Under the pieces are notes generated by a model. The model saw only the letters and a program-made list of their open reading frames with translations. It was not told the DNA's origin and searched no databases. From Bacteroidota bacterium (GTDB lineage: Bacteria; Bacteroidota; Bacteroidia; Palsa-965): a stretch of DNA of 64,000 nt. Where the stretch lies: positions 28 to 64,027 of the forward strand of contig JBJOKQ010000001.1 in NCBI GenBank assembly GCA_046046005.1. Reading direction: 5' to 3'. Positions 4,971-52,474 of the stretch are shown here, in pieces; positions within the stretch are counted from its first letter, which is position 1; each line of letters opens with the position of its first letter. Both the position numbers and the translations under genes were made by a program.

Positions 4971-4991
4971 GTACTGACTCGTTTTATAGAA

Positions 4992-5019
4992 TCCCGCTGT
5001 TACACGGCGGGATTTTTTA
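4992..5019 (+). terminator. Rho-independent terminator after the OMP gene
   Basis: TCCCGC-tgttacacg-GCGGGA followed by TTTTTT. Confidence 0.6.
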
Positions 5020-5027
5020 TTTCTAAC

Positions 5028-5360
5028 AACCACGGCGACACGGAGAGTTTAAAAACAACCACGGAGGCACGGAGAGTTTAAAACAACCACGGTGACACGG
5101 AGAAAAAACTTTCTCTCTTACCCGAAACGATTAGTAAAATAATATCTCCGTGTCTCTATGGTGATTTCCTTTTATACGGAGAGATATTTGTTGTTTCTCA
5201 TAACCACACTCCGACAAGCTCAGTGCGGGCTCTGGCGCGGAGATATTAATTAAATAACCACGGTGACACGGAGAAAAAACTTTCTTTCTTACCCGAAACG
5301 ATTAGTAGAATAATATCGCCGTGTCTCCGTGGTGATTTCCTTTTATCTTGTCATTTCTCC
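5028..5360. repeat. Non-coding repeat cluster. Three short tandem copies (28-29-bp period) of AACCACGGnGnCACGGAGA lie at 5028-5103. They are followed by two copies (171-bp period, 5085-5175 and 5256-5346) of an approximately 90-bp element with 20-25-bp terminal inverted repeats. There are at least 9 CACGGAGA-type motifs in both orientations.
   Basis: Direct reading: AACCACGGCGACACGGAGAG at 5028, AACCACGGAGGCACGGAGAG at 5057 and AACCACGGTGACACGGAGA at 5085 and 5256. Each long copy ends with the reverse-complement arm ATCTCCGTGTCTCTATGGTG or TCGCCGTGTCTCCGTGGTG. There is no ORF of 60 aa or more on either strand. Confidence 0.8.
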
Positions 5361-5382
5361 GTGGTGCTCGTCTGCTGTATTA

Positions 5383-5417
5383 AAACAAAAAATCCCGCTC
5401 GATAAGCTGAGCGGGAC
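5383..5417 (-). terminator. Rho-independent terminator downstream of the SMC-like ATPase gene
   Basis: On the minus strand: TCCCGCTC-agcttatc-GAGCGGGA followed by TTTTTTGTTTT. Confidence 0.7.
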
Positions 5418-5443: not shown

Positions 5444-8400
5444 CTAATTCTGCGTTTGTAACGCATGAATATAGTCTTCAAGTTTTTCAACGATGTTGTC
5501 GTAACTGAACTGTGCAAGCGGAGTCGGATTGATGTTGTGGAACTCCGGATTGTTATTCTTACGCAACGTATAAATGTTCTGCTTTCCTTCTTCGAAACGT
5601 CCGATCGGATCAATCGTCATTGTCAGAATCTGGTAGTCGTAGTTCTTCGCCAGCTCATAAAGCATATCGAAGTTTTCTCCCAGACCCGCAACTTCGTCGA
5701 TGGTCATGAAACGAACACCTTTGCGAATCTTTCTGTCTTTGCGGCTCAAACGATCGCTGTCGATGATAGATAGACGCGCAATACACAGAAGCGCAAGCAT
5801 CGTATAGTTCTGACCGTTTGATCCCGGTGCGTCTTCTCCCATTGGCGTTTTAAGGCTGATGGAAAGATCGAAGTACGATTTCGGATTCGTCAGTTTCTTG
5901 ATGTCCGGCTTCACGTTCTTTCCGTCGCTGTGCTCAAGGAATGCTTTGAGAATGATCGCATCCGCTCCTTCTCCTTCGCTCTCAAACATCTTGAACAATC
6001 CAACGTTTGCCGCTTTCGCAGCGATGTTCTTGTTCAATGAACGAATCCAGCTGATCGGATACGACTTTGATGGATCGAAGTTGATTTCAACGTAGTGACC
6101 GCCGGAAATTTTATTCGAACGGAAGAACTCGCGCATGTCATCAATACGATCGCGATACTCTGTATACACCTCTTCGATTTTCGAGAAAATACCGTTGATG
6201 ATCTTCAACTTGTGGTCGTTGATCTCGTTCATCTTCTGGTTGATATTCTTCAGGTGTTCTTCGATATCACTTGCAAGATCTTCTTCAACACGATCCGGAT
6301 TCTGAATGATCTTCGGCAACATTACTTCTGCAAGAGTCTGGAAATCGTATTTGTGATTGCCTTTCAAACGCTCATCATCAATGTTGAACTTGTCGTCCTT
6401 CATGATAGCGTCGTAATTCGACTCGTATGCTTTCTGCGTGGTGATCACAGTAACTTTCAGTTTGTTCACCTGTGATTCTTCCACCTGTTCCACCGCTTCT
6501 TCCGGATTGAATTCTCCGATAAGTTGTGTGTAACGTGCAAGAACTTCCTGATAGCGATTCTCCAATGCAGGCATCTGTTCCATCAATCCGATCAAACGTT
6601 GTTCGAGTGATCCCTGACGACGTGAAATGTCCTGTAAACGCTGTGAGAATGCGTTATAAAGCATCTTCGTGCTGGAGCCGTGTTCTTTTTCAATCTCACG
6701 GATTTCCTTGTTCACTTTCTCAAGACTCTGTTCTCCTTCATTGGCTTTGAGATATGTCTGAACATCTTTCTGCCAATCCGCAAAGCGCTCATCAAGCTGC
6801 TTCTTGGTGCTCTGGAAATTCTTGAGTTCACGTTCTTTCTCCGGAAGCTGATTCACTTCAAGCTGCTTAATCTGACCTTCAATAGCCATCAAGCCGCCTT
6901 GTGAATTGGAAATGATATCATCCGCTTCACGAAGTTTCTGCAATGCATCTTCCCAGTTCTTCTTCGCTTCATCGTAAACCAAACGAAGATTGTTCTTCGG
7001 ATTGGTGTACAGATCCATGATCATTTCAAATTCGTCTTTCGACATGATCAGTGAATCATCAGGAGAGAAATTCTCCAGGTCTTCACGCTTCAGCCATGCA
7101 TCGGAAACAGAAGTATTGAATCCGAATTCCATGAGATGTTCGCGAAGTGTGCGGTGTGTATTGCGTTCCGCATAAAGTTTCTCGAGTTCTTTCTCGATCG
7201 TATCTCCATACTTCTGCAATTCTTTCTCAATCGTGTCCGGATTGTTGAACATCTGTTTCGGAACATAAGTGATGTATTCCATCACTCCGCTCATATCAAC
7301 CCAGAATCCTTTTGAATCCTTGTCAACAGGTTTCAGATTCTTGTAAACTGCTTCCGGATTCGGAATGAAACGTTCTCCGTCTGTTTTCTCTCCCGGTTTT
7401 TTCGTTCCGAGAGTTTTGAAATGCATGAGAACAGATTCTTCTTCCTTCGTCAGCTTTCCTGCATTGCGGATTGCCCACTGAACGACAGAATCTTTGTTGT
7501 CGCTGTCGAACAACGGCATCAATTGCTCAAGACGATTGATTTCGCCTTCGAGCTGATCCATAATTCCGTCATACTCTGCCTGAGCCATGCGGTAATCGCG
7601 CGACCAGGAAGATTCTGCGAATGCTTCTGCAATTCCTTTGCGATTGAGGAAGTCCACAAACTCGCGCATCTTCTGACGTTCGCGCAATGTGCCGTCCTGC
7701 TTCTGGAATTGTTCTTTTACAAGCTCAACCGTTTTGTAAATACGCACCCAACCTTCAGCGGATTTTACTTTGTTCCACTTCGCACTCGCTTCGTCGTATT
7801 CGTTTTGAGCAATGGTATATGCTTTCTCATAAGAAGCGCGATTCTTCTCAGCGAAGTCGCGGTTCTTCTTTCTGTTTTCAAGTTCCGCTTCGAGACGCTC
7901 GCGCTCACCTGTAATGCTGTCGAGTTCGCGCTCCACAGCATCCATGTTGAGTTCATTCACGCGCTTCTCCAATTGAATCTGCTGGAGATTCACGTGAGCA
8001 GTTTCTTTTTGCGTACGCACAAGGTCACGACCGATTACTTCACGCTGATGATAAGCCCATGAAGTTTCGAGCAACAGCGCACGATGCGTTGCAGCGTCAC
8101 GTTTCTTTTTGTCTTCAAGCAATGAAAGAAGTCGATCCTTTTTCATCTTCACCGTTTCATACACGCGTGCACGACGCTTGTATTCTTCGTGTGCTTCTTC
8201 AATTTCTTTCTTGCGCTTTTCGTACTCTTTGTTCTGGTCGTCGTCGTTGGCAAAGAGGAAGTTTTTCAAATCTTCCGACTTCGCTCCGATTCCTTTACCA
8301 CGCGCGAACGATTGAAGAATCTGCGCAAATGTTTTCAGTTTCTTATCGTCGTGACTGAAGTCCGTTGAAAGAATCTGGTTATTGAACAGGATGCGATGAA

Positions 8401-8938
8401 ACTCTGCTGTACGCTGATTGAACTGCTTCATGATGAAGCCGCGTTTCTCAAAATGCTCGCGCATTTTATCAATCGGCAGAATCTGATTGTTCGGAAGGAA
8501 ATCGCGATACAACAGGAATTGATCCATTGCTTCGAGATTCATTTCCGCTTCCTGATTGAAGTCGTGTCCTTTCTGGATGATGAACGGATACACCGAACGC
8601 GCATTGGTCTGAATATGCGTTCCCACGATGATGAACTTGTTGTGTTCAACTTCAACATTGGCAAATGCATATCCGTAGTAACCCTGACCGGCGTCGCCAC
8701 CTTGTTTGAGAACGACACCTTCAACGGTACGTTTCTCGGTGGTCATTACATCCGTTCCAGATTCCCAGAATTCTTTTTTCGCAACGAAAATCAGCTGGAG
8801 AAGATCGGCGATTACCGACTTACCGGAACCGGAACCTCCTGTGAAATCCGTACGCAACGGGTGCAACAGATAATCGCAGTTGTTGTGATAAATCACACCT
8901 ACTGTCGATAGAGAGAATATTCTTGGATATTGTTTCAT
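5444..8938 (-). CDS. SMC-like ATPase of the MksB/JetC family (Walker A at the N-terminus, long coiled coils, Walker B/D-loop at the C-terminus)
   Basis: 1164 aa. N-terminal P-loop TGGSGSGKSVIADLLQ. About 900 aa of heptad-rich E/K/R/Q sequence. C-terminal signature …YTMLALLCIARLS… and Walker B FMTIDEVAGLG. It is the last gene of a three-gene operon, after kleisin-like and small acidic partners. Confidence 0.75.
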   Translation of the reverse strand: MKQYPRIFSLSTVGVIYHNNCDYLLHPLRTDFTGGSGSGKSVIADLLQLIFVAKKEFWESGTDVMTTEKRTVEGVVLKQGGDAGQGYYGYAFANVEVEHNKFIIVGTHIQTNARSVYPFIIQKGHDFNQEAEMNLEAMDQFLLYRDFLPNNQILPIDKMREHFEKRGFIMKQFNQRTAEFHRILFNNQILSTDFSHDDKKLKTFAQILQSFARGKGIGAKSEDLKNFLFANDDDQNKEYEKRKKEIEEAHEEYKRRARVYETVKMKKDRLLSLLEDKKKRDAATHRALLLETSWAYHQREVIGRDLVRTQKETAHVNLQQIQLEKRVNELNMDAVERELDSITGERERLEAELENRKKNRDFAEKNRASYEKAYTIAQNEYDEASAKWNKVKSAEGWVRIYKTVELVKEQFQKQDGTLRERQKMREFVDFLNRKGIAEAFAESSWSRDYRMAQAEYDGIMDQLEGEINRLEQLMPLFDSDNKDSVVQWAIRNAGKLTKEEESVLMHFKTLGTKKPGEKTDGERFIPNPEAVYKNLKPVDKDSKGFWVDMSGVMEYITYVPKQMFNNPDTIEKELQKYGDTIEKELEKLYAERNTHRTLREHLMEFGFNTSVSDAWLKREDLENFSPDDSLIMSKDEFEMIMDLYTNPKNNLRLVYDEAKKNWEDALQKLREADDIISNSQGGLMAIEGQIKQLEVNQLPEKERELKNFQSTKKQLDERFADWQKDVQTYLKANEGEQSLEKVNKEIREIEKEHGSSTKMLYNAFSQRLQDISRRQGSLEQRLIGLMEQMPALENRYQEVLARYTQLIGEFNPEEAVEQVEESQVNKLKVTVITTQKAYESNYDAIMKDDKFNIDDERLKGNHKYDFQTLAEVMLPKIIQNPDRVEEDLASDIEEHLKNINQKMNEINDHKLKIINGIFSKIEEVYTEYRDRIDDMREFFRSNKISGGHYVEINFDPSKSYPISWIRSLNKNIAAKAANVGLFKMFESEGEGADAIILKAFLEHSDGKNVKPDIKKLTNPKSYFDLSISLKTPMGEDAPGSNGQNYTMLALLCIARLSIIDSDRLSRKDRKIRKGVRFMTIDEVAGLGENFDMLYELAKNYDYQILTMTIDPIGRFEEGKQNIYTLRKNNNPEFHNINPTPLAQFSYDNIVEKLEDYIHALQTQN

Positions 8939-8962
8939 GTCTGATAGTTCAGTGTTGGATCA

Positions 8963-9661
8963 TTATTCGCTGTCGCCTTCTTCCACCGGATACAATCCGC
9001 CGGTGCGCTCTTCAATCGAATTCGTTTCATCAATCAGACGATCGATGTTGTGAATTTCGTAAGAGTACATGGTGAACAGTCGATCAATTGAAGGCATGAT
9101 TTCAAAGAGTTCTTTGTTGCGCGGATCGAAATGAATCCAGCCCATACGTTCGAATTCCTTGAGTGAGTTACGCACCCATTCGTCAATGGTGTTCTCGTCG
9201 ATTTCTGTTGCTTCTTTTTCGCGACGACGTGCAAAAAGGTTGTAGATGAAATTCTTGTACTCTTCGTTGGTCTTGAGGAGCTGAATGAAATCCGGAACGT
9301 AAATGTCGTTGATGAAATATTTGTCGATGCGGTGAATTTTCAGAAGAAGAATTCCAAGCAACGTGTGTTCAGGTGTCAACTTCTTCGCGCGCGACTTTAC
9401 GATACCGTGTGTTTCTTCATCCATTTCGAGGAAGTAGTAACGCGTGTAATCTGAACCCTTACCGGCGAGATTCACTTTGAAAAGATTGCGGTAGTACGCA
9501 CGAAGTTCATCTTCGTACTTCTCCACAAAATTGAACAGCTCTACCTGATGCGGATAGTTCTGAATATGTTGTCCGCTCTTGAACATGAAATCAACGTCTG
9601 CGAACAACGCTTCTGCTTCATCCGTCTCTAGGAAGCCGTACTTTTTATTTGCATTTTCCAT
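8963..9661 (-). CDS. MksE/JetB-like small acidic subunit (DUF4194-like)
   Basis: 232 aa with an acidic C-terminal tail (…YPVEEGDSE). It lies between the kleisin-like and SMC-like genes and overlaps the upstream gene by 34 nt, which suggests translational coupling. Confidence 0.55.
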   Translation of the reverse strand: MENANKKYGFLETDEAEALFADVDFMFKSGQHIQNYPHQVELFNFVEKYEDELRAYYRNLFKVNLAGKGSDYTRYYFLEMDEETHGIVKSRAKKLTPEHTLLGILLLKIHRIDKYFINDIYVPDFIQLLKTNEEYKNFIYNLFARRREKEATEIDENTIDEWVRNSLKEFERMGWIHFDPRNKELFEIMPSIDRLFTMYSYEIHNIDRLIDETNSIEERTGGLYPVEEGDSE

Positions 9662-11025
9662 ATGCCGATGTGTGGGTGTTTAGGATCCAAATTAAATTCT
9701 TCGCTCACGGTTACTTCGTAATCCGGATGTTTGGTGAATTCTTTCAGCACCAATGTTGCTTCCTTGATTGCCTGTTCAAAATCATTGTCCTTGTACATGA
9801 TTTTGAAATAATAATCAGAGAAGTTGATTTTCTTTTTCTTTTCCACGTCAGAAGAAATGATGTTGAACCATTCTTCAATGCGTCTCTCACGAGCCAGATA
9901 CTGTCTGCGCAATTCCGCCTGACGCGCAAGATCATCTTCATCCCAACTCAAGTTCTGCAACTGAATCGGAGGCGGCTCAAGTAGTTGCAGGTAATCAATT
10001 CCCACAACGCGGGAACGATCGCTGTAAATTTCTTTCTGAGAAATATTCTTCGGAAGGAAAACTTCCATCTCGTGCACCTTGCGATCCTTCAGCTTTTTCG
10101 TTCTGTAGAATTTGCTGGTTGAGTTTTTCATCAGGTACAGCAGGAACGATTCAATCTTACGATCAAAATCGCGCTTCTCGAAATCGTTGTAAAGCTTATT
10201 GATCTTCGGTTTGATTCTGTCGATCGTGTGCGACACGTTGATCAAACGCATTTCAATGTCTTTGAAATACATGCGCACATCGCGCTTCATTTCGCGAAAC
10301 TCAAACTCCACACCAAGATCTGCGTCGTCAAGCAGTTGCTTGATATCATCTTTCGAAGAGAATGCACTTGAAAGTTTATCCGCTTGTTCTTTGATGCGAT
10401 CAAGCAGTGCTTCACAGCCAATCAGCATTTCGCGGAAGTTGTCGTACTCGTTCTTCACGAGATCATTCAACTGCTCAACAGTATCTTCGATCTGCGCCTG
10501 AAGCGCGCGAAGCTGTGCGGAAATATCTGCCTTGTGCTTGAAGAACTGCGTGTGATACCAGTGACGGAAATCTTCGAGGTTCTCGAGTTTCAATCCGAGC
10601 AGCATCACAAGATCGTTGAACGTCTTCTGAATCTGTGAAGGATTGATTGCAGTGTGAACTTCGCGCTCCAGCATGTCGCAGAAATTTTCTGCATACGTGC
10701 TCAGCTGATATGTTTTCTCTTCGATGTTCTTGTCGATGAAGTGACGCAGCAGGCGGTGAATGGTTTCATCGTACTTCTGGGTTTCTTCTCCGCGCGCTGA
10801 TGCCTGACCGAGTTCTGCGTAAACCTGTTTGATGGTTTCCACAATGATGCGCTCAGGAAAAGTGCGCTCAATGATTCCGGCACGAACCTTCTGGAAAATA
10901 GCCAGAACGATCAATCCGTCTTCCTGACGCGGCACGAGAAGATTGTATCTTTCGCGCAGAATTTTCGGGAAGTGAAGCGGACGTGTGGTGCGTAGCGCCG
11001 GCGGGATTAGGGATAATTGCTCCAT
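9628..11025 (-). CDS. MksF/JetA-like kleisin-type subunit (DUF3375-like)
   Basis: About 465 aa, largely helical with coiled-coil segments. It is the first gene of the operon. The ORF track starts at TTG 11034; the first ATG is at 11025 (MEQLS…). Its size and position match JetA/MksF. Confidence 0.5.
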   Translation of the reverse strand: MEQLSLIPPALRTTRPLHFPKILRERYNLLVPRQEDGLIVLAIFQKVRAGIIERTFPERIIVETIKQVYAELGQASARGEETQKYDETIHRLLRHFIDKNIEEKTYQLSTYAENFCDMLEREVHTAINPSQIQKTFNDLVMLLGLKLENLEDFRHWYHTQFFKHKADISAQLRALQAQIEDTVEQLNDLVKNEYDNFREMLIGCEALLDRIKEQADKLSSAFSSKDDIKQLLDDADLGVEFEFREMKRDVRMYFKDIEMRLINVSHTIDRIKPKINKLYNDFEKRDFDRKIESFLLYLMKNSTSKFYRTKKLKDRKVHEMEVFLPKNISQKEIYSDRSRVVGIDYLQLLEPPPIQLQNLSWDEDDLARQAELRRQYLARERRIEEWFNIISSDVEKKKKINFSDYYFKIMYKDNDFEQAIKEATLVLKEFTKHPDYEVTVSEEFNLDPKHPHIGIWKMQIKSTAS

Positions 11026-11169
11026 AGAGAACAAATATATCTTTCCGCCCCAATGAAAACAGGTGTTGTTAACAGATTGTTCAAACCTTGTTTTTGGCTC
11101 TGAAAACTCACTTGCAATGTTGAAATCTTTTGTGTTTTTTTACTTGATAAAAACAGGGATTTTTCCTAA

Positions 11170-12150
11170 ATGATTACAAGCGAAATCAGAGGGGCGGAAC
11201 TGGCACCGGTTCAGGATCTGGAACTGCTCGGAATGCAGTACCGCAGAAGCCGCAGAAAATACCTGTATCTGCTGCTGATTCCGGCTCTGTGGGCTGTTTC
11301 TGCAAGCCTGTTTCTTGTCCCCGATTTCGAATGGGCGCCGGAGCTGGTGAGCCTGCTTTGCATTGTTTCTCTTTTCGGTGTGAGCGCTTTTGTTTTCGTT
11401 GGAATTTCTTCTCCTGATGAAATCAAACACCGTTATTCACAACTCATCATTCCCGGCTTGTTTCGCGAGCTCGGAGCACAAGATGTGGAAGTGTTCTCGA
11501 GCCACACAGTATCAACAGCTGCCATTCTCGACTCAAAACTTTATACGGGCGAATACGACTCGATTCAGCGCCGCGACTGCATAATGGGCAGTGTTCGCGG
11601 AATGCAATTCGGCATGTATGAAATTGCGATACAAACCGGGAGCTCCATGGGCGGGCGCTACAGCAGAACGTCGGTAATGACGAATCAGTTTTTCGGGTGG
11701 CTCATCATGATTCCTTTGCGCAATTTCCTTGGAGAACACTTCATCATCATGCGTGAGCGAGTGAGTGAAACGGAAGCTGACGACTGGCAGAAAAAAACCA
11801 TCAAGCGTTGGTCCGAATTTCCGCAGTTCTTCTACAATGAGAGCGATAAAAGTGAGTTCAACGAAACATTTCTTGTTGCAACTTCTCACCCGCAGCAGAT
11901 GAACCAAATACTGACGAAAGAAGTCAAAGATTTTCTGATGTTCTTAGCGGAAAGCTCCGGAAATACATTCGGAATTTCCATTCGCGGAAATATGCTTTGC
12001 GTTTTAATCGGTGAAGATGACGGAAGTTTTCATTATGCACCTGACGGTCTTTTCACTGAGAAAATACCGGATGAAAGCGCGGAAAATGCACGTTGGTATA
12101 TGGCATTACTCGATGGAATCCGCAAGAATTTCGCAGGAAAATATAAATAG
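11170..12150 (+). CDS. Hypothetical membrane protein with two N-terminal TM helices and a cytoplasmic domain; possibly DUF3137-like
   Basis: 326 aa. Hydrophobic segments are YLYLLLIPALWAVSASLFLV and LLCIVSLFGVSAFVFVGI. No recognisable catalytic motif. Confidence 0.4.
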   Translation: MITSEIRGAELAPVQDLELLGMQYRRSRRKYLYLLLIPALWAVSASLFLVPDFEWAPELVSLLCIVSLFGVSAFVFVGISSPDEIKHRYSQLIIPGLFRELGAQDVEVFSSHTVSTAAILDSKLYTGEYDSIQRRDCIMGSVRGMQFGMYEIAIQTGSSMGGRYSRTSVMTNQFFGWLIMIPLRNFLGEHFIIMRERVSETEADDWQKKTIKRWSEFPQFFYNESDKSEFNETFLVATSHPQQMNQILTKEVKDFLMFLAESSGNTFGISIRGNMLCVLIGEDDGSFHYAPDGLFTEKIPDESAENARWYMALLDGIRKNFAGKYK

Positions 12151-21511: not shown

Positions 21512-21806
21512 GATTTTTCGCAACGCGAAAGGCGAATCCCGTACAACAAAAAACCGAACGCAGTTTGCGTTCGGCTATATTTTGTGGTCCCGGACGGGAG
21601 AGCCCGCGTTAAGAAAATGTCCGGTGGACATTTTTAGCGGGCGATGATTGCCGGAAGGCAATTGCACGTATTGCTGCGTTAAAAAATCATCCCGTGGATG
21701 ATTTTAGCGAGAGATTTTTCGCAACGCGAAAGGCGAATCCCGTTTAAAAAGTAAGCCACCTGCATTCTCATACAAGTGGCTATTATTTCTGTGGTCCCGG
21801 CGGGAT
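21512..21806. repeat. Imperfect tandem duplication (~203-bp period) downstream of tRNA-Arg. Each unit has a 31-bp box GATTTTTCGCAACGCGAAAGGCGAATCCCGT (21512-21542 and 21713-21743), a hairpin terminator, and a copy of the tRNA 3' end TGTGGTCCCGG(A/C)CGGGA (21583-21599 versus the authentic 21790-21805).
   Basis: The two 31-bp copies are identical. The flank CGGCTATATTTTGTGGTCCCGGACGGGA at 21571-21599 mirrors GGCTATTATTTCTGTGGTCCCGGCGGGA at the real tRNA 3' end. Minus-strand hairpins with T-runs sit at 21554-21574 and 21755-21780. Confidence 0.75.
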
Positions 21807-21865
21807 TCGAACCCACAACCAACAGAACCGGAATCTGTCATTCTATCCAGTTGAACTACGGAACC
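21792..21865 (-). tRNA. tRNA-Arg (anticodon CCG)
   Basis: The 74-nt cloverleaf was folded by hand: acceptor GGTTCCG/CGGGACC, anticodon stem ACAGA/TCTGT with loop TTCCGGT, T-arm GTGGG-TTCGAAT-CCCGC, discriminator A. CCA is not encoded. Confidence 0.8.
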
Positions 21866-24361: not shown

Positions 24362-26242
24362 TTATCTTCCCAAATAAATCATGAGGACGGAAATGTCAGC
24401 TGGAGATATTCCGCTGATTCGCGAAGCCTGACCAAGACTTCTTGGTCTTTGGCGAGAGAGTTTTTCCTTGGCTTCGATTGAAAGAGATGCGAGCTTTTTA
24501 TAGTCCAGATCGTCATCCAGAAGTACATAATCCAGGCGCTGCATCTTGTCTGCAAGTTCGCTTTCACGCTGGATGTACCCTTCGTACTTCACCTGGATTT
24601 CGGCTTGCTCGATGTCCTCTTTACGGAAACTATTCAGAAAATCTGAAGTAGCCGAACTGATGTCGCGCAGATCCCAAATGGAAACACCAGGGCGCGATAA
24701 TACCGATGTCAGCTTTACCTTTTGGTTCAACGGACTTGATTCACGTGAAACAAGGAAAGCGTTCGCCTCTTCAGGACTAACTGCCTGTTCACGTAGAAAC
24801 TTGATGATCTTTTCTGATGCCGCCTTCTTTTCATTTACACGATCCATTCGTTCCTGAGAAGCCAATCCTAGCTCATAACCGCGCGGCGTTAGTCGCAAAT
24901 CAGCATTGTCCTGACGCAACAGAATCCTGTACTCTGCCCTGCTTGTAAACATGCGATACGGTTCTTCTGTTCCTTTAGTAATGAGATCATCGATCAGAAC
25001 TCCGATATAAGCATCGGATCTGGACAGAATAAATGGGGCCTTTTCACGAACAGAAAGGTGCGCATTAATTCCGGCGATCAAACCCTGACACGCCGCTTCT
25101 TCATATCCGGTAGTCCCATTAATCTGACCCGCGAAATACAGGTTCTTGATCAAATGCGTTTGTAGCGTTGAATCCAGCTGAATCGGCGGGAAGTAATCGT
25201 ACTCAATCGCATAGCCCGGACGGAACATCTTCACGTTCTCAAACCCCGGAATCAGACGAAGTGCTTTCATCTGCACATCCTCAGGCAAAGAGGTTGAGAA
25301 GCCGTTAACGTAAACTTCCACCGTATTCCATCCTTCGGGTTCTACGAAAATCTGGTGTCTGTTCCGTTCCGCAAAACGAGTGATCTTATCTTCTATAGAC
25401 GGACAATATCTTGGCCCCAAACCTTGAATTCGCCCAGCATACATTGGCGACTTTTCAAACCCGGTTCGAAGAATATCATGTACCGAATCATTCGTGTACG
25501 TAATGAAGCATGAGCGCTGCTCTTTTAACGGACTCGTGGTATCAGAATAAGAGAACTTCTCCGGATTCTCGTCACCAGGCTGCTCTTCCATCTTACTATA
25601 ATCCAGAGAGCGTCCATCAACGCGCGGCGGGGTTCCGGTCTTCATTCTTCCCGCCTCAAAACCAAGTTCAATAAGTTGCTCAGTAATTCCGGTTGCTGCC
25701 TTCTCTCCTGTTCTTCCTCCGCCAAAATTCTTCTCCCCTATATGAATCTTTCCGTTTAGAAAAGTGCCGTTAGTTAGCACGACAGCCTTAGCCCGAATAG
25801 AAACGCCCATGCTTGTTATTACGCCACGAGCATAACCGTCCCCAACAATCAGCCCCGACACCATGTCTTGCCAAAAGTCCAGATTAGGCGTTTGCTCTAA
25901 CATCAGTCGCCATTCCTCGGCAAAACGCCAACGGTCGGACTGCGCGCGCGGGCTCCACATTGCGGGACCCTTGGAGCGATTAAGCATTCTGAACTGTATC
26001 GCTGTTTTATCCGTTACAATTCCGGAGTATCCACCCAACGCGTCAACTTCACGAACAATCTGCCCTTTAGCCACCCCGCCCATAGCAGGATTGCAACTCA
26101 TCTGCGCAATCGTCTGCATGTTCATCGTTACCAAAAGTGTCTTAGAACCCAGATTGGCTGCTGCAGCTGCGGCTTCGCAACCGGCATGACCAGCTCCAAC
26201 AACTATAACATCATACTCTTCGAAAATCGCCATAGAGTGCAA
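24362..26242 (-). CDS. mnmG: tRNA uridine-5-carboxymethylaminomethyl(34) synthesis enzyme MnmG (GidA)
   Basis: 626 aa. N-terminal FAD-binding YDVIVVGAGHAGCEAA. Length and the C-terminal region are typical of GidA/MnmG. Confidence 0.9.
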   Translation of the reverse strand: MHSMAIFEEYDVIVVGAGHAGCEAAAAAANLGSKTLLVTMNMQTIAQMSCNPAMGGVAKGQIVREVDALGGYSGIVTDKTAIQFRMLNRSKGPAMWSPRAQSDRWRFAEEWRLMLEQTPNLDFWQDMVSGLIVGDGYARGVITSMGVSIRAKAVVLTNGTFLNGKIHIGEKNFGGGRTGEKAATGITEQLIELGFEAGRMKTGTPPRVDGRSLDYSKMEEQPGDENPEKFSYSDTTSPLKEQRSCFITYTNDSVHDILRTGFEKSPMYAGRIQGLGPRYCPSIEDKITRFAERNRHQIFVEPEGWNTVEVYVNGFSTSLPEDVQMKALRLIPGFENVKMFRPGYAIEYDYFPPIQLDSTLQTHLIKNLYFAGQINGTTGYEEAACQGLIAGINAHLSVREKAPFILSRSDAYIGVLIDDLITKGTEEPYRMFTSRAEYRILLRQDNADLRLTPRGYELGLASQERMDRVNEKKAASEKIIKFLREQAVSPEEANAFLVSRESSPLNQKVKLTSVLSRPGVSIWDLRDISSATSDFLNSFRKEDIEQAEIQVKYEGYIQRESELADKMQRLDYVLLDDDLDYKKLASLSIEAKEKLSRQRPRSLGQASRISGISPADISVLMIYLGR

Positions 26243-27693: not shown

Positions 27694-30600
27694 TTACTCT
27701 ACACCGCTGAAATAAAGGTTCACTTTATTCTTGTAGTATGGAACCAGGGCCGGGGGAACCGTCCGCAACAGTTCAGCTTCCTGTTGCTTTTGTCTGTTAT
27801 ACTCAGAAAATCCGTCAGGGTTACTTAATTCGTAATTTTTTGCTTCGTTCGCCTGACGTTGTTCATCCTGTTCGCGCTGTTGTTCGGCTTTCTCAAACTC
27901 CAGCATCTTATCAAGAATGTCTTGCTGACGCTTCAGTGTTTCTGCGTTGATATTCTTATTGACCAGATCCGTTTCGGTTTCTTCCATCTTCTCCGCAACA
28001 TCACCACCTGGAGTTCCACCGCCGTTCTGTTCAGAATCTTTCATTGCCTCCTGCATCATACGACGCAAGCGTTCCTGTTCTGCAGCCATCTTCGCCAACT
28101 CTTCCGATCCAACACCACCTTGTCCGTTCTGGCCTTTCTGCATGGCATTCTGCATGCGCTGGTTCAACTGTTGCTGTTGCTGACGAATTCCGCTCATGCC
28201 CGGTTTGTTCTTTCCGGACTTCCCAGGCTTACCGCTACCGGGCTTGTTACAGTTTCCTCCTTTGCAATCTTTAGGTTCGCCTTTGCTCTTCATCTGTGCG
28301 TTCATCTGTTGCATCATCTGCTCCAGTGATTCATCAAGCATCAAAGCAAGAGTATTTATAGACGTCATTGCACGTTGCTGTCCGTTCTGTGCTTGTCCTG
28401 GTTCACGATATGCAAGACCGCGAATAGCGCGATCCATATTGAAATTGATATTGGTGATTTCCTTATTCACCAACGGAGAAATCTTAGGATTGCGTTTCGT
28501 TAAAGCAAGAAGCGAGTCTTCAATCATGCGTGCATCATCACGAAGACGGTTCTGCTCGCGCGCCAAAGTAACATACTGCGGATCTGTTGTTCCGATCTTA
28601 CGCGCTTTCATCATCAATGCTTCCTGGTCGAATGAAAGCTGAATAAGATTATCCAGAAGCGTGCGGATGGTTTGCATGTCTTCGCCTTCACTTTCGCTCT
28701 CCATTTTCGATTGCGCGTCTTCCATTTTCTTCTTGAGATCCTGCATCTGATCAGAAGCATTCTTCTGCGACTTGGAACCGCCTTTCATATCGCCGTTCTT
28801 CATCTGGTCGGAAGCGTCGCGCTGCTCTTTCTGAATCTGCATTTCTTCCAGATCCGTATTCGGTAATTCATGCGGCTCTTCCAGCTTCTGATTGAGTGAA
28901 TCAAGCTTGTCCATCTGATTGCGCAGTTCATTGAATTGCTTGTTGAGGCTGTCCTGCTGTTTGCGGATATCTTCTTTCTGCTCTTTGCTCAAGCTTTTCT
29001 GCTCTGACATTTTTGACAATGAGTCTTGCTGTTTCTGCAGAGTATCAATTTGCTGAATTGCTTCTTCCAGTTTATTCTGGAATTGCATTTCGCGGAAAAG
29101 ATTCAGTGTACGATCAAGATCCTTCTCGGTATTCTTGTTGTCCTGCTTCATTTCCTCCAGCGTCTTTTGCGTTTTATCCTTCTGCGGATTCTTGAGCAAT
29201 TCTTCCAGCTTGTCCAGCATCTTCTTCATCTCATCTGTAGAGAGCTGATTGAAGAGTTCATTCATTTCCTCCTGGTTCTCCTCAGCATTCGGATCATTCG
29301 GCATGAATTCCTGCTGCTGCTGCACATTCATTGCGTTACGCTGCTTGAGCATATCTATGCGCTGTTGTAAGGCTTGCTGACGCATTTTCAAGGCTTCAAG
29401 CTTCTTCCGCTCTTCCCAGGAAAGACTCTTCTTCTCAAGCACCTTTTTGTGCAAATCATCGATATCCTTCTGAAGTTGTTTCGATTCTTCGATGGCCGCT
29501 TCCAGATCTTCTTCGATCTTGGCGTTAGCCGAATCGTTCATGTTGGCAAGATCTTTCAGTGTCGGAGCTTTGTAAATCATTCGCTGTGAGCGAGTTGACT
29601 TCGCGCCATGCACCGCGTCGTTGTCCCACACTTCGAAATAATATTCGATTTCATCGCCGGCTTGCACTCCGAACGTCGACAAATCCCAGTAATAATAAAA
29701 CTGATCGCGAACGAGTGAAGGGCGCAATGGAATATTCACGAATTCTGCTCGTGGTTCAGCAGGAGTGCCTGATGAATCTTTTGCATTGAGCAGACGGTAC
29801 ACGAATTGCATGCGCGAGAAGCCGTAGTCGTCGCGAACTTCTCCTGTGAAATACATGCGCAGATTCGACACAGAATCTTTTTTCTCCTCAACGTTGATTG
29901 CAGGATACAAATCCGGAATTACAGTAATGGAGTAGCCAATGGAATCTTTGCTCTTGAGAAATTGATTTGCAGTGTGCAATGAGTATTTCTGACTTTCGAG
30001 CAGACGTTTTGAGAAAGAGAAACGATCTTCTCCGTCCTGACGCAACTTGAAGCTCGAATCAGCAAACGCCATCACAAATGAAGACGTTGAGCGTGTAGCG
30101 AACTTCCAATTGATAACTGTTCCTGCAGGAACAACAAGATCTCCGGTATTGCGAACTGTTTCGTTTTTCTTCCCTGTGTATGCAGGATATTTAAGCTCTG
30201 CATCGAAGTTGAGAACGATAGGATTCGGAATTACCTTGAGAAGATATTCTTTGGATGTAAATCCGTCAGCGAAAAAGCGGAATGATTTTTCTTTCTGAAC
30301 ATTGCGGAAAACGTAACTGAAGTTGATGGTATTTTCCTTGTTCATTCGGTACTCGTTTCCGTCAACAAGTAGTTTCACTTCAGCCGGAATTTCGGCACCG
30401 GAAAGCTTTACGTTCAGTGTAAAATCTTCGTTCTCTACTGCTTCTAGATTGCCATTGATTTCAAATGAAAACGGCGCTTGTTCTTCGAAGTAATCAGAGT
30501 GATTCACGAGGCGATTCGTGCTTTCTGTAAGCAAGCTTGCATTGGTGAAAATGATTACAGCAATGGCGAGCAAAGGAAGAAGTGCCCATTTTACATACTT

Positions 30601-31071
30601 GCGATTCTGACTGAAATCAACCGCAGATGTAAACGGAACAGGTTTGAGTTCGCTGATCTTCTGATTGATGCTGGCTTCAATGAGTTCTTTACTAGCGCCT
30701 GTACCAGAGCCGTCTTTCTGCAGCTGCAGCACATTCAGCAATTTATCTTCAACATTGGTGAAATGCTTTCCAATGATCAGCGCGGCTTGTTCATGCGAAA
30801 TGACTTTGCCGATTTTATTGATTCGGAAGAGGGGAAGAGCAATGAATCTGCCAATCACATAGCCCGCAGCAGCGATGAAGGACCAAAAAAGAATCGTGCG
30901 GGGAAGCGTATCGAAGTGAGCATAATATTCCAGCAATGAAATAGCAAGATAACCGCTGACCACAATGGCAATTGTGTACAGAGATCCGCGCAACAGCTGG
31001 TTCTTGTAGTACTTGCGAATGAACTCGTCGAGTTTCGCAATCAGAATTCCATATGCGCTGTTATTTTCCAT
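27694..31071 (-). CDS. Large membrane-anchored protein (1125 aa) with an N-terminal TM region and a very long Q/E/K-rich coiled-coil region; possibly DUF4175-like
   Basis: N-terminal TM helices (YTIAIVVSGYLAISLLEYY and ILFWSFIAAAGYVIG). Residues ~500-1100 are low-complexity coiled coil (…LQKQQDSLSKMSEQKSLSKEQKED…). The next gene (RsbW-like kinase) starts 2 bp after this gene's stop. Confidence 0.5.
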   Translation of the reverse strand: MENNSAYGILIAKLDEFIRKYYKNQLLRGSLYTIAIVVSGYLAISLLEYYAHFDTLPRTILFWSFIAAAGYVIGRFIALPLFRINKIGKVISHEQAALIIGKHFTNVEDKLLNVLQLQKDGSGTGASKELIEASINQKISELKPVPFTSAVDFSQNRKYVKWALLPLLAIAVIIFTNASLLTESTNRLVNHSDYFEEQAPFSFEINGNLEAVENEDFTLNVKLSGAEIPAEVKLLVDGNEYRMNKENTINFSYVFRNVQKEKSFRFFADGFTSKEYLLKVIPNPIVLNFDAELKYPAYTGKKNETVRNTGDLVVPAGTVINWKFATRSTSSFVMAFADSSFKLRQDGEDRFSFSKRLLESQKYSLHTANQFLKSKDSIGYSITVIPDLYPAINVEEKKDSVSNLRMYFTGEVRDDYGFSRMQFVYRLLNAKDSSGTPAEPRAEFVNIPLRPSLVRDQFYYYWDLSTFGVQAGDEIEYYFEVWDNDAVHGAKSTRSQRMIYKAPTLKDLANMNDSANAKIEEDLEAAIEESKQLQKDIDDLHKKVLEKKSLSWEERKKLEALKMRQQALQQRIDMLKQRNAMNVQQQQEFMPNDPNAEENQEEMNELFNQLSTDEMKKMLDKLEELLKNPQKDKTQKTLEEMKQDNKNTEKDLDRTLNLFREMQFQNKLEEAIQQIDTLQKQQDSLSKMSEQKSLSKEQKEDIRKQQDSLNKQFNELRNQMDKLDSLNQKLEEPHELPNTDLEEMQIQKEQRDASDQMKNGDMKGGSKSQKNASDQMQDLKKKMEDAQSKMESESEGEDMQTIRTLLDNLIQLSFDQEALMMKARKIGTTDPQYVTLAREQNRLRDDARMIEDSLLALTKRNPKISPLVNKEITNINFNMDRAIRGLAYREPGQAQNGQQRAMTSINTLALMLDESLEQMMQQMNAQMKSKGEPKDCKGGNCNKPGSGKPGKSGKNKPGMSGIRQQQQQLNQRMQNAMQKGQNGQGGVGSEELAKMAAEQERLRRMMQEAMKDSEQNGGGTPGGDVAEKMEETETDLVNKNINAETLKRQQDILDKMLEFEKAEQQREQDEQRQANEAKNYELSNPDGFSEYNRQKQQEAELLRTVPPALVPYYKNKVNLYFSGVE

Positions 31072-36271: not shown

Positions 36272-36342
36272 GGTCCTGTGGCCGAGTGGCTAGGCTCAGC
36301 TCTGCAAAAGCTGCTACAGCGGTTCGAATCCGCTCGGGACCT
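36272..36342 (+). tRNA. tRNA-Cys (anticodon GCA)
   Basis: Hand-folded: acceptor GGTCCTG/CGGGACC, anticodon stem CAGCT/AGCTG with loop CTGCAAA, T-arm AGCGG-TTCGAAT-CCGCT, discriminator U. 71 nt. Confidence 0.75.
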
Positions 36343-36355
36343 CGATAAAAATGAA

Positions 36356-46337: not shown

Positions 46338-47324
46338 ATGATAACAGGGCCAATGAGCAAAGGATATCTCGATATTAAAATTGATCCTACTCTTGATATA
46401 TTTGCAGAGATCAAAAAACTCAAGCGCGAAAAAAATGCAATTCTGCTCGCGCATTATTACCAGGACGGCGATATTCAGGATGTTGCGGATTTTATCGGAG
46501 ACAGTCTGGGACTTGCACAGAAAGCTGCCGCCACAGATGCTTCTTTAATTGTTTTTGCCGGTGTGCATTTTATGGCTGAAACAGCCAAGATTCTCAATCC
46601 GAATAAAAAAGTTGTATTGCCGGATCTGAATGCCGGATGCTCGCTTGCCGATTCATGTCCCGCAGCGCCCTTCGAAGATTTCCGTAAACAACATCCCGAT
46701 CACATTGTGATCACTTATATCAACTGCACAGCAGAGATCAAAGCTTTGAGCGACATTATATGTACTTCAAGCAATGCAGAACAGATTGTTGCCAGTTTAC
46801 CAAAAGATCAGAAGATCATATTTGCACCTGATAAAAATCTGGGCCGATACATTGCTAAAAAAACCGGACGCGATATGTTGTTGTGGGACGGTTCGTGCAT
46901 GGTGCATGAAATATTTTCGTTGGAGCGAATCGTGAAACTCAAAGCGCAGCATCCGAAAGCGAAATTCATTGCACATCCCGAATGTGAAACACCGGTTCTT
47001 GAACTGGCAGATTTTATCGGTTCAACAACTGCGCTGCTGAATTACACGAAGAAAGATTCAGCAATGGAGTACATTGTTGGAACAGAAACAGGAATTCTCC
47101 ATCAGATGCAAAAAGAATCACCTGATAAGACATTCATACCTGCTCCTCCGAACAATAATTGCGCCTGCAACGACTGTCCGCACATGAAACTGAATACACT
47201 TGAAAAACTGTATATTTGTTTAAAGCACGAACAGCCGGAAATCATTCTTCCGGAAGATCTGAGAAGCCGTGCAGAAAAGCCGATCAGACGAATGCTTGAA
47301 CTGTCGGCACAGTTCGGAATGTAA
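46338..47324 (+). CDS. nadA: Quinolinate synthase
   Basis: Cysteine ligands and the …[18 protein letters not shown]… motif typical of NadA. 328 aa. Confidence 0.85.
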
Positions 47325-47332
47325 GAGCTGAA

Positions 47333-48874: not shown

Positions 48875-48875
48875 A

Positions 48876-52469: not shown

Positions 52470-52474
52470 AAGAA

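What the first reader, a model, noticed from the sequence alone, without database searches (positions are those of the whole stretch)
5444..11034. JetABC/MksFEB-like condensin operon with no JetD/MksG partner
Three co-directional, tightly packed genes: one encoding about 465 aa, one encoding 232 aa (they overlap by 34 nt), then one encoding 1164 aa after a 24-nt gap. The last has an SMC-like ATPase architecture: N-terminal Walker A GGSGSGKS, long coiled coils, C-terminal Walker B FMTIDEVAG. This is the canonical order of Wadjet (jetA-jetB-jetC) and MksFEB systems. Wadjet plasmid restriction needs a fourth gene, JetD/MksG, a Toprim/topoisomerase VI-like nuclease. It should sit immediately downstream of the ATPase gene. 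Here that position holds a terminator and a repeat cluster. No ORF of 60 aa or more exists on the minus strand between 4970 and 5444, nor upstream of 11034. So this is either a chromosome-organising MksBEF-type condensin in a Bacteroidota genome or a Wadjet remnant that has lost its nuclease.
Basis: partly seen in the sequence, partly recalled or inferred. Interest (0 to 1): 0.7.

Follow-up and report, generated by a model that had tools for sequence, protein, structure and literature searches.

The report
Nuclease-less MukBEF-like condensin in Bacteroidia
Three adjacent genes encode a complete DNA-folding (SMC) machine whose closest relatives are four-gene plasmid-cutting Wadjet systems; this lineage has lost the cutting enzyme and keeps the rest as a slowly evolving, fixed chromosomal operon, a likely fresh example of a defence system turned into a chromosome organiser.

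Summary
Three co-directional minus-strand genes encode 465, 232 and 1164 aa, with a 34-nt overlap and a 24-nt gap. All three subunits are assigned:
- **ATPase:** MukB/JetC-type SMC (MukB is the best profile and Foldseek match; Rad50 is far weaker; no zinc hook).
- **Middle protein:** Pfam MksE/MukE.

No JetD/MksG is present in the window or in 24 orthologous loci. All 11 distant relatives sampled (nine distinct operons, 27–37% identity) carry a fourth gene abutting the ATPase gene, a short Toprim protein with weak JetD_C hits. Two of these loci are listed as Wadjet-group "FEBG" operons in Bürmann et al. 2025. The three-gene clade nests inside the four-gene clades, so the nuclease was lost.

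It is not a decaying remnant: synteny is conserved, ω is 0.013–0.032 (DAHP synthase 0.010), catalytic motifs are 100% conserved and the promoter is conserved.

Best reading: a domesticated, nuclease-free MukBEF-like loop extruder acting on the chromosome. A nuclease in trans and Smc-ScpAB co-occurrence could not be tested. This is a new member of a known kind, of moderate interest.

The parts
9628..11025 (-). mukF/mksF-like kleisin gene (465 aa): N-terminal winged helix, long helical middle domain, disordered linker (about residues 330-360), C-terminal winged helix
8963..9661 (-). mksE/mukE-like KITE subunit gene (232 aa), with a clade-specific acidic C-terminal tail
   Evidence: Pfam MksE PF21980 at 1.1e-17 (65.4 bits, cutoff 27) and MukE PF04288 at 4.6e-6 (26.1 bits, cutoff 25). 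NCBIfam MukE 8.5e-7. PDB MukE 7nyw_E 0.0012. No JetB model hit in PADLOC. The acidic tail is seen only in the three-gene clade and its sister.
5444..8938 (-). mukB/mksB/jetC-like SMC ATPase gene (1164 aa): head halves at 1-230 and 949-1164, coiled-coil arms at 233-477 and 570-941, small hinge at about 480-570
   Evidence: Family profile vs PDB: MukB 7nyw/9gm6 at 3.6e-9, also 1qhl and 3euj. Model pLDDT 78.8. Foldseek: MukB 1.3e-25, type II JetC 8.8e-23, Smc5/6 and condensin about 1e-13, type I JetC 7e-12, Rad50 2.5e-9. Walker A, Q-loop, signature and Walker B/D-loop are 100% conserved in 37 clade sequences, and there is no CxxC. Many homologs carry a precomputed PF04310 MukB hit.
11032..11039 (-). 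Promoter -7 box TATATTTG (Bacteroidota sigma-A consensus TAnnTTTG), 7-14 nt upstream of the kleisin ATG; implies a very short or absent 5' leader
   Evidence: Present at -9 to -15 in 20 of 20 orthologous loci. The consensus itself comes from established knowledge of Bacteroidota promoters and was not tested here.
11066..11083 (-). Conserved tandem element TGAACAATCTGTTAACAA (TnAACAA-N4-TnAACAC type) at a fixed position -58 from the ATG; candidate regulator site or upstream promoter element
   Evidence: Found at -57/-58 (or -52 where the start call shifts by 6 nt) in 17 of 20 orthologous loci. The other three appear by eye to carry a one-mismatch variant.
5383..5416 (-). Intrinsic terminator of the operon (hairpin TCCCGCTCAGCTTATCGAGCGGGA followed by TTTTTTGTTT on the minus strand), 28 nt after the ATPase stop codon
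   Evidence: Sequence read. The hairpin was found by the terminator scan, and the T-run was read on the minus strand.

Best explanation
The three genes encode a complete, nuclease-free SMC complex of the MukBEF-like (Mks/Wadjet) group. It has a MukB-type ATPase dimer, a MukF-type kleisin that bridges the heads, and a MukE/MksE-type KITE dimer.

It descends from a four-gene family, found so far only in Bacteroidota, of the form F-E-B plus a short Toprim MksG/JetD. That family sits in defence islands. On the branch leading to one uncultured Bacteroidia lineage the nuclease gene was lost. The remaining three genes became fixed at one chromosomal position and now evolve as slowly as core metabolic genes.

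Inferred mechanism: like MukBEF and Pseudomonas MksBEF, the complex loads topologically on DNA and uses ATP hydrolysis to extrude loops on the host chromosome, contributing to chromosome folding and segregation rather than cleaving plasmids.

Shown here: subunit identities, absence of the nuclease in cis, nested phylogeny, synteny and purifying selection. Inferred: loop extrusion, and the chromosomal (housekeeping) rather than defensive role.
For: Subunit identities.

Fourth gene:
- Present and abutting the ATPase gene in all 11 distant loci sampled, nine distinct operons spanning every other clade including the two basal ones.
- It has invariant LCEN / WxxGGxN / DWDxxG motifs. Six of eight products hit Pfam JetD_C, and several hit PADLOC JetD models, best 1e-6.
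- Two of these loci (WJFD01000002.1, JAFDXR010000001.1) are listed as 'FEBG' Wadjet-group operons in Data S1 of PMC7617805.
- It is absent from the window and from 24 orthologous loci plus L036, L032 and L035 (tblastn and HMM on six-frame translations; best E about 3).

Phylogeny: in the NJ tree the three-gene clade plus P0038 nests inside the four-gene clades.

Synteny: the same flanking genes (Gate, RPE, DAHP synthase on one side; OMP, Omp28, PGA_cap on the other) occur across about 24 species-level MAGs.

Selection:
- Against L001 (dS about 0.4), omega is 0.013, 0.018 and 0.032, against 0.010 for DAHP synthase and 0.035-0.116 for the other neighbours.
- dN is among the lowest in the neighbourhood, comparable only to DAHP synthase, at greater distances.
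- Divergence co-varies with flanking genes, Pearson 0.79-0.91 against PGA_cap.

Other support:
- Catalytic motifs are 100% conserved.
- The promoter is conserved in 20 of 20 loci.
- In the 50%-identity sister clade the F-E pair and the B gene were seen at separate housekeeping loci.
- There are no plasmid-borne relatives.
- The window context is housekeeping, with no defence or mobile genes.

Precedent: the literature states that MukBEF and P. aeruginosa MksBEF probably arose from Wadjet by JetD loss and organise chromosomes (PMC10586767; PMC7617805).
Against: - No functional data exist for this family.
- The rest of the genome could not be searched, so an MksG/JetD or another effector encoded in trans is not excluded.
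- The N-terminal segment of the E subunit (MENxN..GFLE) is conserved in both three- and four-gene versions. In type I Wadjet an N-terminal JetB motif contacts JetD (PMC10586767), so a docking surface may have been retained.
- Whether these genomes also have Smc-ScpAB is unknown. If they do, the role could be auxiliary.
- The tree is a midpoint-rooted NJ tree without an outgroup or support values.
- The split arrangement in the sister clade rests on two contigs from different samples.
- Strong conservation and synteny are also compatible with a conserved non-nucleolytic defence or silencing role.
Confidence: 0.6

Rival explanations
1. Nuclease-independent defence. The three-protein complex still recognises small circular or foreign DNA by loop extrusion, but it neutralises it without cutting (compaction, silencing or sequestration, as proposed for Smc5/6), or it hands the DNA to an unrelated effector.
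For: All its closest relatives are defence-type four-gene operons in defence islands. The N-terminal E motif is retained. The review notes that SMC complexes can restrict DNA without a dedicated nuclease (PMC10586767).
Against: The locus is syntenic, and its evolutionary rate is as low as DAHP synthase, unlike the long branches and patchy contexts of the four-gene relatives. No defence genes lie nearby in the window.
Confidence: 0.2
2. A complete Wadjet system whose MksG/JetD nuclease is encoded elsewhere in the genome (a split system), so plasmid cleavage is retained.
For: The sister clade shows that genes of this system can be unlinked. The E N-terminus is conserved. Only 64 kb of this genome, plus flanks of about 10 kb or less (often much less on short contigs) in the orthologs, could be searched.
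Against: No trace of the fourth gene appears in the window or in any of about 27 three-gene or sister loci. In all 11 four-gene loci the nuclease gene overlaps or abuts the ATPase stop codon, suggesting tight coupling.
Confidence: 0.12
3. A decaying Wadjet remnant: non-functional leftovers after deletion of the nuclease gene.
For: The nuclease is missing, and the slot downstream of the ATPase gene holds only terminators and repeats.
Against: All three reading frames are intact in 24 or more species-level genomes (where the contig covers the gene). Omega is 0.013-0.032 and all ATPase motifs are 100% conserved. The promoter is conserved.
Confidence: 0.02
4. A Rad50/SbcC- or RecN-type DNA-repair ATPase with two accessory proteins, as some automatic annotations say ('DNA repair protein SbcC/Rad50', 'exonuclease SbcC').
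For: JGI names on several homologs. There is a weak PADLOC LmuB hit over the coiled coil.
Against: Foldseek ranks MukB (1e-25) and JetC far above Rad50 (2.5e-9). There is no CxxC zinc hook and no SbcD/Mre11 neighbour. The partners are MukE/MksE and MukF-like.
Confidence: 0.02

Closest known systems
Bacteroidota four-gene Wadjet-group operons (FEBG) with a short MksG, e.g. Chitinophaga sp. SYP-B3965 WJFD01000002.1 ('FEBG 244') and Bacteroidetes bacterium JAFDXR010000001.1 ('FEBG 386') in Data S1 of Bürmann et al. 2025 (PMC7617805). Flavobacterium commune/psychrophilum and Sphingobacterium siyangense entries have the same gene sizes.
   Same: F, E and B are homologous end to end (22-31%, 28-34% and 27-37% identity). 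The gene order F-E-B and the overlapping or abutting gene junctions are the same. The E subunit has the same Pfam MksE match.
   Different: Those operons carry a fourth gene of 284-329 aa (Toprim, JetD_C-like) abutting B. They sit among defence or mobile genes and lie on long branches. The window's clade has no fourth gene, a fixed housekeeping location, short branches and an acidic tail on E.
MukBEF of Escherichia coli / Photorhabdus (gamma-proteobacteria)
   Same: A nuclease-less member of the Wadjet group with F-E-B operon order. It is the best structural match for both the ATPase (MukB 1e-25) and the kleisin (MukF 8e-8), and MukE is detected by Pfam, NCBIfam and PDB searches. It is a chromosomal, vertically inherited housekeeping operon.
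   Different: MukB is about 1480 aa against 1164 aa here. Sequence identity is only 10-14%. Pfam MukF and MukB models do not reach threshold for the window proteins. The phylum differs and the loss of the nuclease was independent. MatP, topoisomerase IV and other MukBEF partners were not examined.
MksBEF of Pseudomonas aeruginosa (and MksB of mycobacteria)
   Same: A three-gene Mks complex without MksG that acts on the chromosome. [quoted passage not shown] The E subunit shares the Pfam MksE family.
   Different: It comes from a different branch of the Wadjet group. No sequence comparison was made here. The Pseudomonas complex coexists with Smc-ScpAB, whereas co-occurrence is unknown for this lineage.
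Wadjet types I-III (JetABCD), as in Doron 2018, E. coli GF4-3, P. aeruginosa PA14 and Neobacillus vireti
   Same: The overall SMC-kleisin-KITE architecture is the same. Type II JetC (8.8e-23) and type II JetA (5.6e-4) are the next-best structural matches after MukB and MukF.
   Different: There is no JetD. No PADLOC JetA, JetB or JetC model matches any of the three proteins. E matches MksE rather than DUF4194. The context is not a defence island.

Membership tests
Mks/Wadjet group of SMC complexes (MukBEF-like, sensu Bürmann 2025) | SMC ATPase of the MukB/MksB/JetC type (ABC head halves, long antiparallel coiled coil, hinge) | tested here: met
   Profile vs PDB: MukB 3.6e-9. Model architecture. 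Foldseek: MukB 1.3e-25, JetC type II 8.8e-23, ahead of all other SMCs.
Mks/Wadjet group of SMC complexes (MukBEF-like, sensu Bürmann 2025) | Kleisin of the MukF/MksF/JetA type (N-terminal WHD, middle domain, linker, C-terminal WHD) | tested here: met
Mks/Wadjet group of SMC complexes (MukBEF-like, sensu Bürmann 2025) | KITE subunit of the MukE/MksE/JetB type | tested here: met
   Pfam MksE 65.4 bits (cutoff 27) and MukE 26.1 bits (cutoff 25).
Mks/Wadjet group of SMC complexes (MukBEF-like, sensu Bürmann 2025) | Operon order F-E-B with tight gene junctions | tested here: met
   34-nt overlap and 24-nt gap. The same order is seen in all relatives.
Wadjet anti-plasmid defence system (JetABCD / MksBEFG) | Toprim/Topo VI-A-like nuclease JetD/MksG encoded with the operon | tested here: not met
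   No ORF in the downstream slot. tblastn and an 8-member HMM of the family's own fourth gene find nothing in the window or in any ortholog. The rest of the genome was not searchable.
Wadjet anti-plasmid defence system (JetABCD / MksBEFG) | Recognition by curated defence-system models (PADLOC JetA, JetB, JetC) | tested here: not met
   No Jet model hit for any of the three proteins at E up to 0.01.
Wadjet anti-plasmid defence system (JetABCD / MksBEFG) | Restriction of circular plasmids by ATP-dependent cleavage | not testable with these tools
   Needs transformation or cleavage assays.
MukBEF sensu stricto (gamma-proteobacterial) | Sequence membership in the MukB (PF04310), MukF and MukE families | tested here: not met
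   Only MukE passes, marginally (26.1 vs 25). There is no MukF hit. The window ATPase has no MukB hit above threshold, although some homologs carry weak precomputed PF04310 hits.
MukBEF sensu stricto (gamma-proteobacterial) | Replacement of Smc-ScpAB, with co-evolved partners (MatP, etc.) | not testable with these tools
   Whole genomes of the clade could not be scanned. There is no Smc, ScpA or ScpB in the 64-kb window.
MksBEF (nuclease-less Mks condensin, P. aeruginosa type) | An F-E-B complex lacking MksG, maintained on the chromosome | tested here: met
MksBEF (nuclease-less Mks condensin, P. aeruginosa type) | Contribution to chromosome organisation or segregation | not testable with these tools
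   Needs Hi-C, cytology or genetics.
Rad50/SbcC and RecN SMC-like repair ATPases | Zinc hook (CxxC) at the coiled-coil apex (Rad50/SbcC) and an Mre11/SbcD partner; no kleisin or KITE | tested here: not met
   Only two Cys in the protein and no CxxC. The partners are kleisin and KITE. Rad50 ranks far below MukB.

The most novel reading that the evidence does not exclude
This uncultured Bacteroidia lineage has repeated, independently of the gamma-proteobacteria, the step that produced MukBEF. A plasmid-cutting Wadjet system lost its nuclease and became an essential, vertically inherited chromosome organiser, possibly displacing Smc-ScpAB. Four-gene relatives at 32-37% identity still exist, so the defence-to-housekeeping switch can be dissected by swapping subunits and adding the nuclease back.
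Probability: 0.2. Interest if true: 0.75.

Novelty: new member of a known kind. Interest (0 to 1): 0.5.

Why it matters
How chromosome-organising SMC complexes such as MukBEF relate to plasmid-cutting Wadjet systems is an open question. Reviews propose that MukBEF and MksBEF arose from Wadjet by loss of JetD, but MukBEF is so diverged that the transition cannot be reconstructed.

Here the derived three-gene form and its four-gene relatives coexist within one phylum at alignable distance. There is a clear contrast in context (defence islands against a fixed housekeeping locus) and in evolutionary rate. A few clade-specific changes can be tested, including the acidic tail on the E subunit, the conserved promoter element and a split operon in a sister clade.

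That gives a tractable natural experiment on what makes an SMC motor self-tolerant and chromosome-directed. It would also be the first candidate MukBEF-like condensin in Bacteroidota. In addition, the kleisin family is invisible to current Pfam, PADLOC and NCBIfam models, so these systems are under-annotated.

Tried and rejected
1. Sequence searches of the kleisin found only helical-bundle noise. I tried the single sequence, a 16-member profile against 1.84 billion representatives, and a 55-member profile against PDB and Pfam. The assignment therefore rests on predicted structure.
2. A profile of the fourth-gene family against PDB sequences found nothing. Its JetD identity rests on consistent sub-threshold Pfam and PADLOC hits, the Toprim motifs and the published catalogue.
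3. The second large-ORF cluster at 46338-53227 was checked as a possible second SMC system. It is NadA, a MORN-repeat protein, a PAS histidine kinase and a LytTR regulator.
4. The repeat cluster downstream of the ATPase gene was checked for a known RNA family and for copies elsewhere. It has no Rfam hit, and the motif is confined to this intergenic region.
5. Plasmid searches with the ATPase and the kleisin found no match.
6. dN/dS at larger distances is unusable because dS is saturated. Only the L001 comparison gives a reliable ratio.
7. Whole-genome questions (MksG in trans, presence of Smc-ScpAB) could not be addressed.
8. The SbcC/Rad50 labels given by automatic annotation were considered and rejected.


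Full report
**1. Observation**

The ORF scan finds three co-directional minus-strand ORFs:
- 9628..11034: 468 aa from a TTG. The biologically likely start is the ATG at 11025, giving 465 aa.
- 8963..9661: 232 aa.
- 5444..8938: 1164 aa.

The ATG start is supported by homolog N-termini (MEQLSLIPP). A conserved promoter box also overlaps the upstream TTG.

No ORF of 60 aa or more lies between 4971 and 5443 on either strand. That interval holds a terminator for the + strand OMP gene (4988-5016), a terminator for the operon (hairpin 5393-5416 with a T-run on the minus strand) and about 360 bp of short palindromic repeats between them.

ORFs of 96, 71 and 124 aa lie at 11140-11907, but they are shadows inside the + strand DUF3137 gene.

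**2. What the three proteins are**

*Middle protein.* This is the only one with a curated family match: Pfam MksE at 1.1e-17 (65.4 bits against a cutoff of 27) and MukE at 4.6e-6. It also matches NCBIfam MukE and PDB MukE. It does not match any JetB model.

*1164-aa protein.* It has no Pfam match above threshold, but there are several lines of evidence:
- Many homologs carry a precomputed MukB N-terminal hit.
- A 25-member family profile finds MukB heads as its only specific PDB matches: 7nyw and 9gm6 at 3.6e-9, plus 1qhl and 3euj.
- Its AlphaFold model (pLDDT 78.8) has the SMC layout of two head halves, two long arms and a small hinge.
- Foldseek ranks MukB first (1.3e-25), then type II JetC (8.8e-23). 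Smc5/6 and condensin (about 1e-13), type I JetC (7e-12) and Rad50 (2.5e-9) are well behind.
- It has only two cysteines and no CxxC hook.

So the refutation condition 'RecN/SbcC-type instead' is not met.

*465-aa protein.* It has no detectable sequence relative outside its own family. Negative searches were:
- Pfam, PADLOC, NCBIfam and PDB with the single sequence.
- An exhaustive profile search of 1.84 billion representatives, which returned only 240 clusters, nearly all full-length ones 430-467 aa plus shorter fragments.
- A 55-member profile against PDB and Pfam.

**3. The missing fourth gene and where it went**

The ATPase family has 89 clusters in the word-indexed search. All named members are Bacteroidota.

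*Four-gene relatives.* I looked at genomic context for 11 distant loci (nine distinct operons, 27-37% identity) that cover every other clade of the tree, including the two basal ones:
- Ferruginibacter (L025)
- Sphingobacteriaceae (L026)
- Elizabethkingia anophelis (L027, L028)
- a 3.9-Mb genome (L029, L030)
- Chitinophaga (L031)
- L033, L034, L038 and L039

Each has a fourth gene of 284-329 aa that overlaps or abuts the ATPase stop codon. These fourth-gene products are homologous to one another. They share invariant LCEN, WxxGGxN and DWDxxG motifs, which I read as the Toprim glutamate and DxD. Six of eight hit Pfam JetD_C, below threshold (best 2.7e-4). Several hit different PADLOC JetD models, best 1e-6.

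Independently, Data S1 of Bürmann et al. 2025 (PMC7617805) lists two of these very loci as Wadjet-group 'FEBG' operons, with the fourth gene called MksG: WJFD01000002.1 and JAFDXR010000001.1. Flavobacterium and Sphingobacterium operons with the same gene sizes are also listed. These four-gene operons sit next to AbiE, AAA_21/OLD-like ATPases, Fic, DUF4365, caspase-like, TmtA-like, recombinase and transposase genes.

*Three-gene clade.* The window, 24 orthologous loci from species-level MAGs (72-99% identity) and L036 have no trace of the fourth gene, by tblastn or by an 8-member HMM on six-frame translations (best E about 3).

*Tree.* In a midpoint-rooted NJ tree the three-gene clade and its 51%-identity sister (P0038) nest inside the four-gene clades. 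Their nearest outgroups, P0042 and P0044, both carry the fourth gene. The parsimonious reading is one loss of the nuclease on the stem of this lineage.

*Sister clade.* There, the F-E pair (L035) and the B gene (L032) were found at separate housekeeping loci without a fourth gene. Those two contigs come from different samples.

**4. Remnant or maintained machine?**

The data point to a maintained machine.

- **Synteny.** The operon sits at the same position in about 24 genomes. A nucleoside-transporter-like gene, ribulose-phosphate epimerase, DAHP synthase, a HAD hydrolase, a beta-lactamase-family gene and recO lie on one side. Two OMP genes and a PGA_cap gene lie on the other.
- **Conservation.** The three proteins are 72-92% identical where flanking RecO, beta-lactamase and OMP genes are 40-65% identical.
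- **Selection.** Against the closest genome (dS about 0.4), omega is 0.013 (B), 0.018 (E) and 0.032 (F). DAHP synthase is 0.010 and the other neighbours are 0.035-0.116. At larger distances their dN is among the lowest in the neighbourhood, comparable only to DAHP synthase.
- **Co-divergence.** Pairwise divergence of F, E and B co-varies with that of flanking genes. Pearson r is 0.79-0.91 against PGA_cap over 14-17 loci, at roughly half its rate.
- **Catalytic motifs.** Walker A, Q-loop, signature motif and Walker B/D-loop are 100% conserved in 37 sequences.
- **Promoter.** A Bacteroidota -7 box (TAnnTTTG) lies 7-14 nt upstream of the start in 20 of 20 loci. A tandem TnAACAA-N4-TnAACAC element sits at a fixed -58 in 17 of 20.
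- **Mobility.** No relative is found on plasmids.
- **Context.** The 64-kb window is ordinary Bacteroidota chromosome: T9SS PorZ and CHU_C proteins, MnmG, GluRS, NadA and RNase R.

**5. Mechanism**

Shown: a complete F-E-B set with intact ATPase chemistry, no nuclease in cis, descent from a nuclease-bearing family, and strong constraint.

Inferred from what is established for MukBEF and Wadjet (PMC7617805, PMC10586767):
- The kleisin bridges the two ATPase heads and dimerises through its N-terminal domain.
- The KITE dimer binds the kleisin middle region.
- The complex entraps DNA and extrudes loops at the expense of ATP.
- Without a nuclease, the outcome is DNA folding rather than cleavage.

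The housekeeping signature makes the chromosome the most likely substrate. This matches MukBEF and P. aeruginosa MksBEF, which the literature already regards as Wadjet derivatives that lost JetD.

I put about 0.9 on the composition and evolutionary history, and about 0.6 on the full statement including the chromosomal role.

**6. Caveats and rivals**

I could not search the rest of any genome in the clade. So an MksG in trans (0.12) and the presence or absence of Smc-ScpAB remain open.

The E N-terminus (MENxN..GFLE) is conserved in both three- and four-gene forms. In type I Wadjet, an N-terminal JetB motif contacts JetD. This could mean a retained docking site, or simply a structural role.

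A nuclease-independent defence or silencing function (0.2) fits the ancestry but fits less well with the evolutionary rate and context. Decay (0.02) and a Rad50/RecN-type identity (0.02) are rejected by the data.

**7. Comparison with what is known, and novelty**

The kind is known. It is a nuclease-less member of the Mks/Wadjet group, and Fig. S1A of PMC7617805 documents repeated MksG loss. The four-gene Bacteroidota relatives are already in that paper's operon table.

The three-gene clade does not appear there. Five contigs that existed at the time are absent by accession or length, and there are no 'Bacteroidia' or 'Flavobacteriales bacterium' entries. I found no paper describing a MukBEF-like condensin in Bacteroidota.

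I therefore rate it a new member of a known kind. Its specific value is that the derived and ancestral forms are close enough to compare directly.

Interest is 0.5. It would rise to about 0.75 if the lineage proves to lack Smc-ScpAB or if the operon proves essential.

Noticed in passing
window 5025-5366: A cluster of short palindromic repeats lies between the two facing terminators. There are two 95-nt direct copies (5081-5175 and 5252-5346, 94% identical). The core AACCACGGnGACACGGAGA occurs five times here and nowhere else in the 64 kb (0.01 expected). There is no Rfam match. It looks like a small REP/MITE-like intergenic element.
   Followed up: partly
window 11066-11083 (minus strand): A tandem TnAACAA-N4-TnAACAC element sits at a fixed distance (-58) from the kleisin start. 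It is conserved in 17 of 20 orthologous loci, and the other three appear by eye to carry a one-mismatch variant. It could be a regulator binding site or an upstream promoter element; no regulator was identified.
   Followed up: partly
window 8963-9020 (C-terminal end of the 232-aa protein): The E subunit of the three-gene clade and its 50% sister ends in an acidic tail (…YPVEEGDSE; DFEENEEEN in the sister). The tail is absent from all eight four-gene relatives aligned, so it is a clade-specific change that coincides with nuclease loss.
   Followed up: partly
L032:8001-11522 and L035:1779-3835: In the roughly 50%-identity sister clade, the ATPase gene stands alone between OmpA-like and TonB-receptor genes. 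The kleisin and MksE genes sit together at another housekeeping locus. This looks like a split operon, but it is inferred from two contigs from different samples.
   Followed up: partly
L029:12186-13190; L031:12370-16082; L027:699-6078; L038:10102-14987: The four-gene relatives sit in defence-island-like contexts: a TmtA-like fragment next to a transposase, AbiEi/AbiEii, AAA_21/OLD-like ATPases, Fic, DUF4365, caspase-like peptidases and an MComp1/SMC_N protein.
   Followed up: no
L023, L021, L003/L018/L020/L024 (record titles): Several MAG contigs that carry this Bacteroidia operon are labelled Synechococcus sp. UW140, Chitinophaga pinensis or 'uncultured Chryseobacterium sp.', although the operon and its flanks are 72-88% identical to the window. 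This is probably bin contamination or mislabelled taxonomy.
   Followed up: no
P0018, P0020, P0024, P0027, P0032, P0038, P0088, P0089: Automatic annotations name these MukB-like ATPases 'DNA repair protein SbcC/Rad50' or 'exonuclease SbcC'. The fold and the partner proteins show this is a misannotation.
   Followed up: yes
window 27694-31071 (minus strand): A large 1125-aa ORF has only a DUF4175 match (4.7e-13 over residues 289-490). It is otherwise uncharacterised.
   Followed up: no
window 11170-12150; L036:4942-7746: A DUF3137 gene is transcribed divergently from the operon in the window and in several orthologous loci (duplicated in L036, next to a HepT/MNT-like pair). It is very poorly conserved (23-36% identity; 83% in the near-identical L001) next to the highly conserved operon.
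   Followed up: no
window 21791-21865 and 36272-36343; 24362-26242: tRNA-Arg(CCG) and tRNA-Cys(GCA) genes, and mnmG/gidA. There is no clear GC-skew inflection in the window, so no inference about proximity to the origin was made.
   Followed up: no
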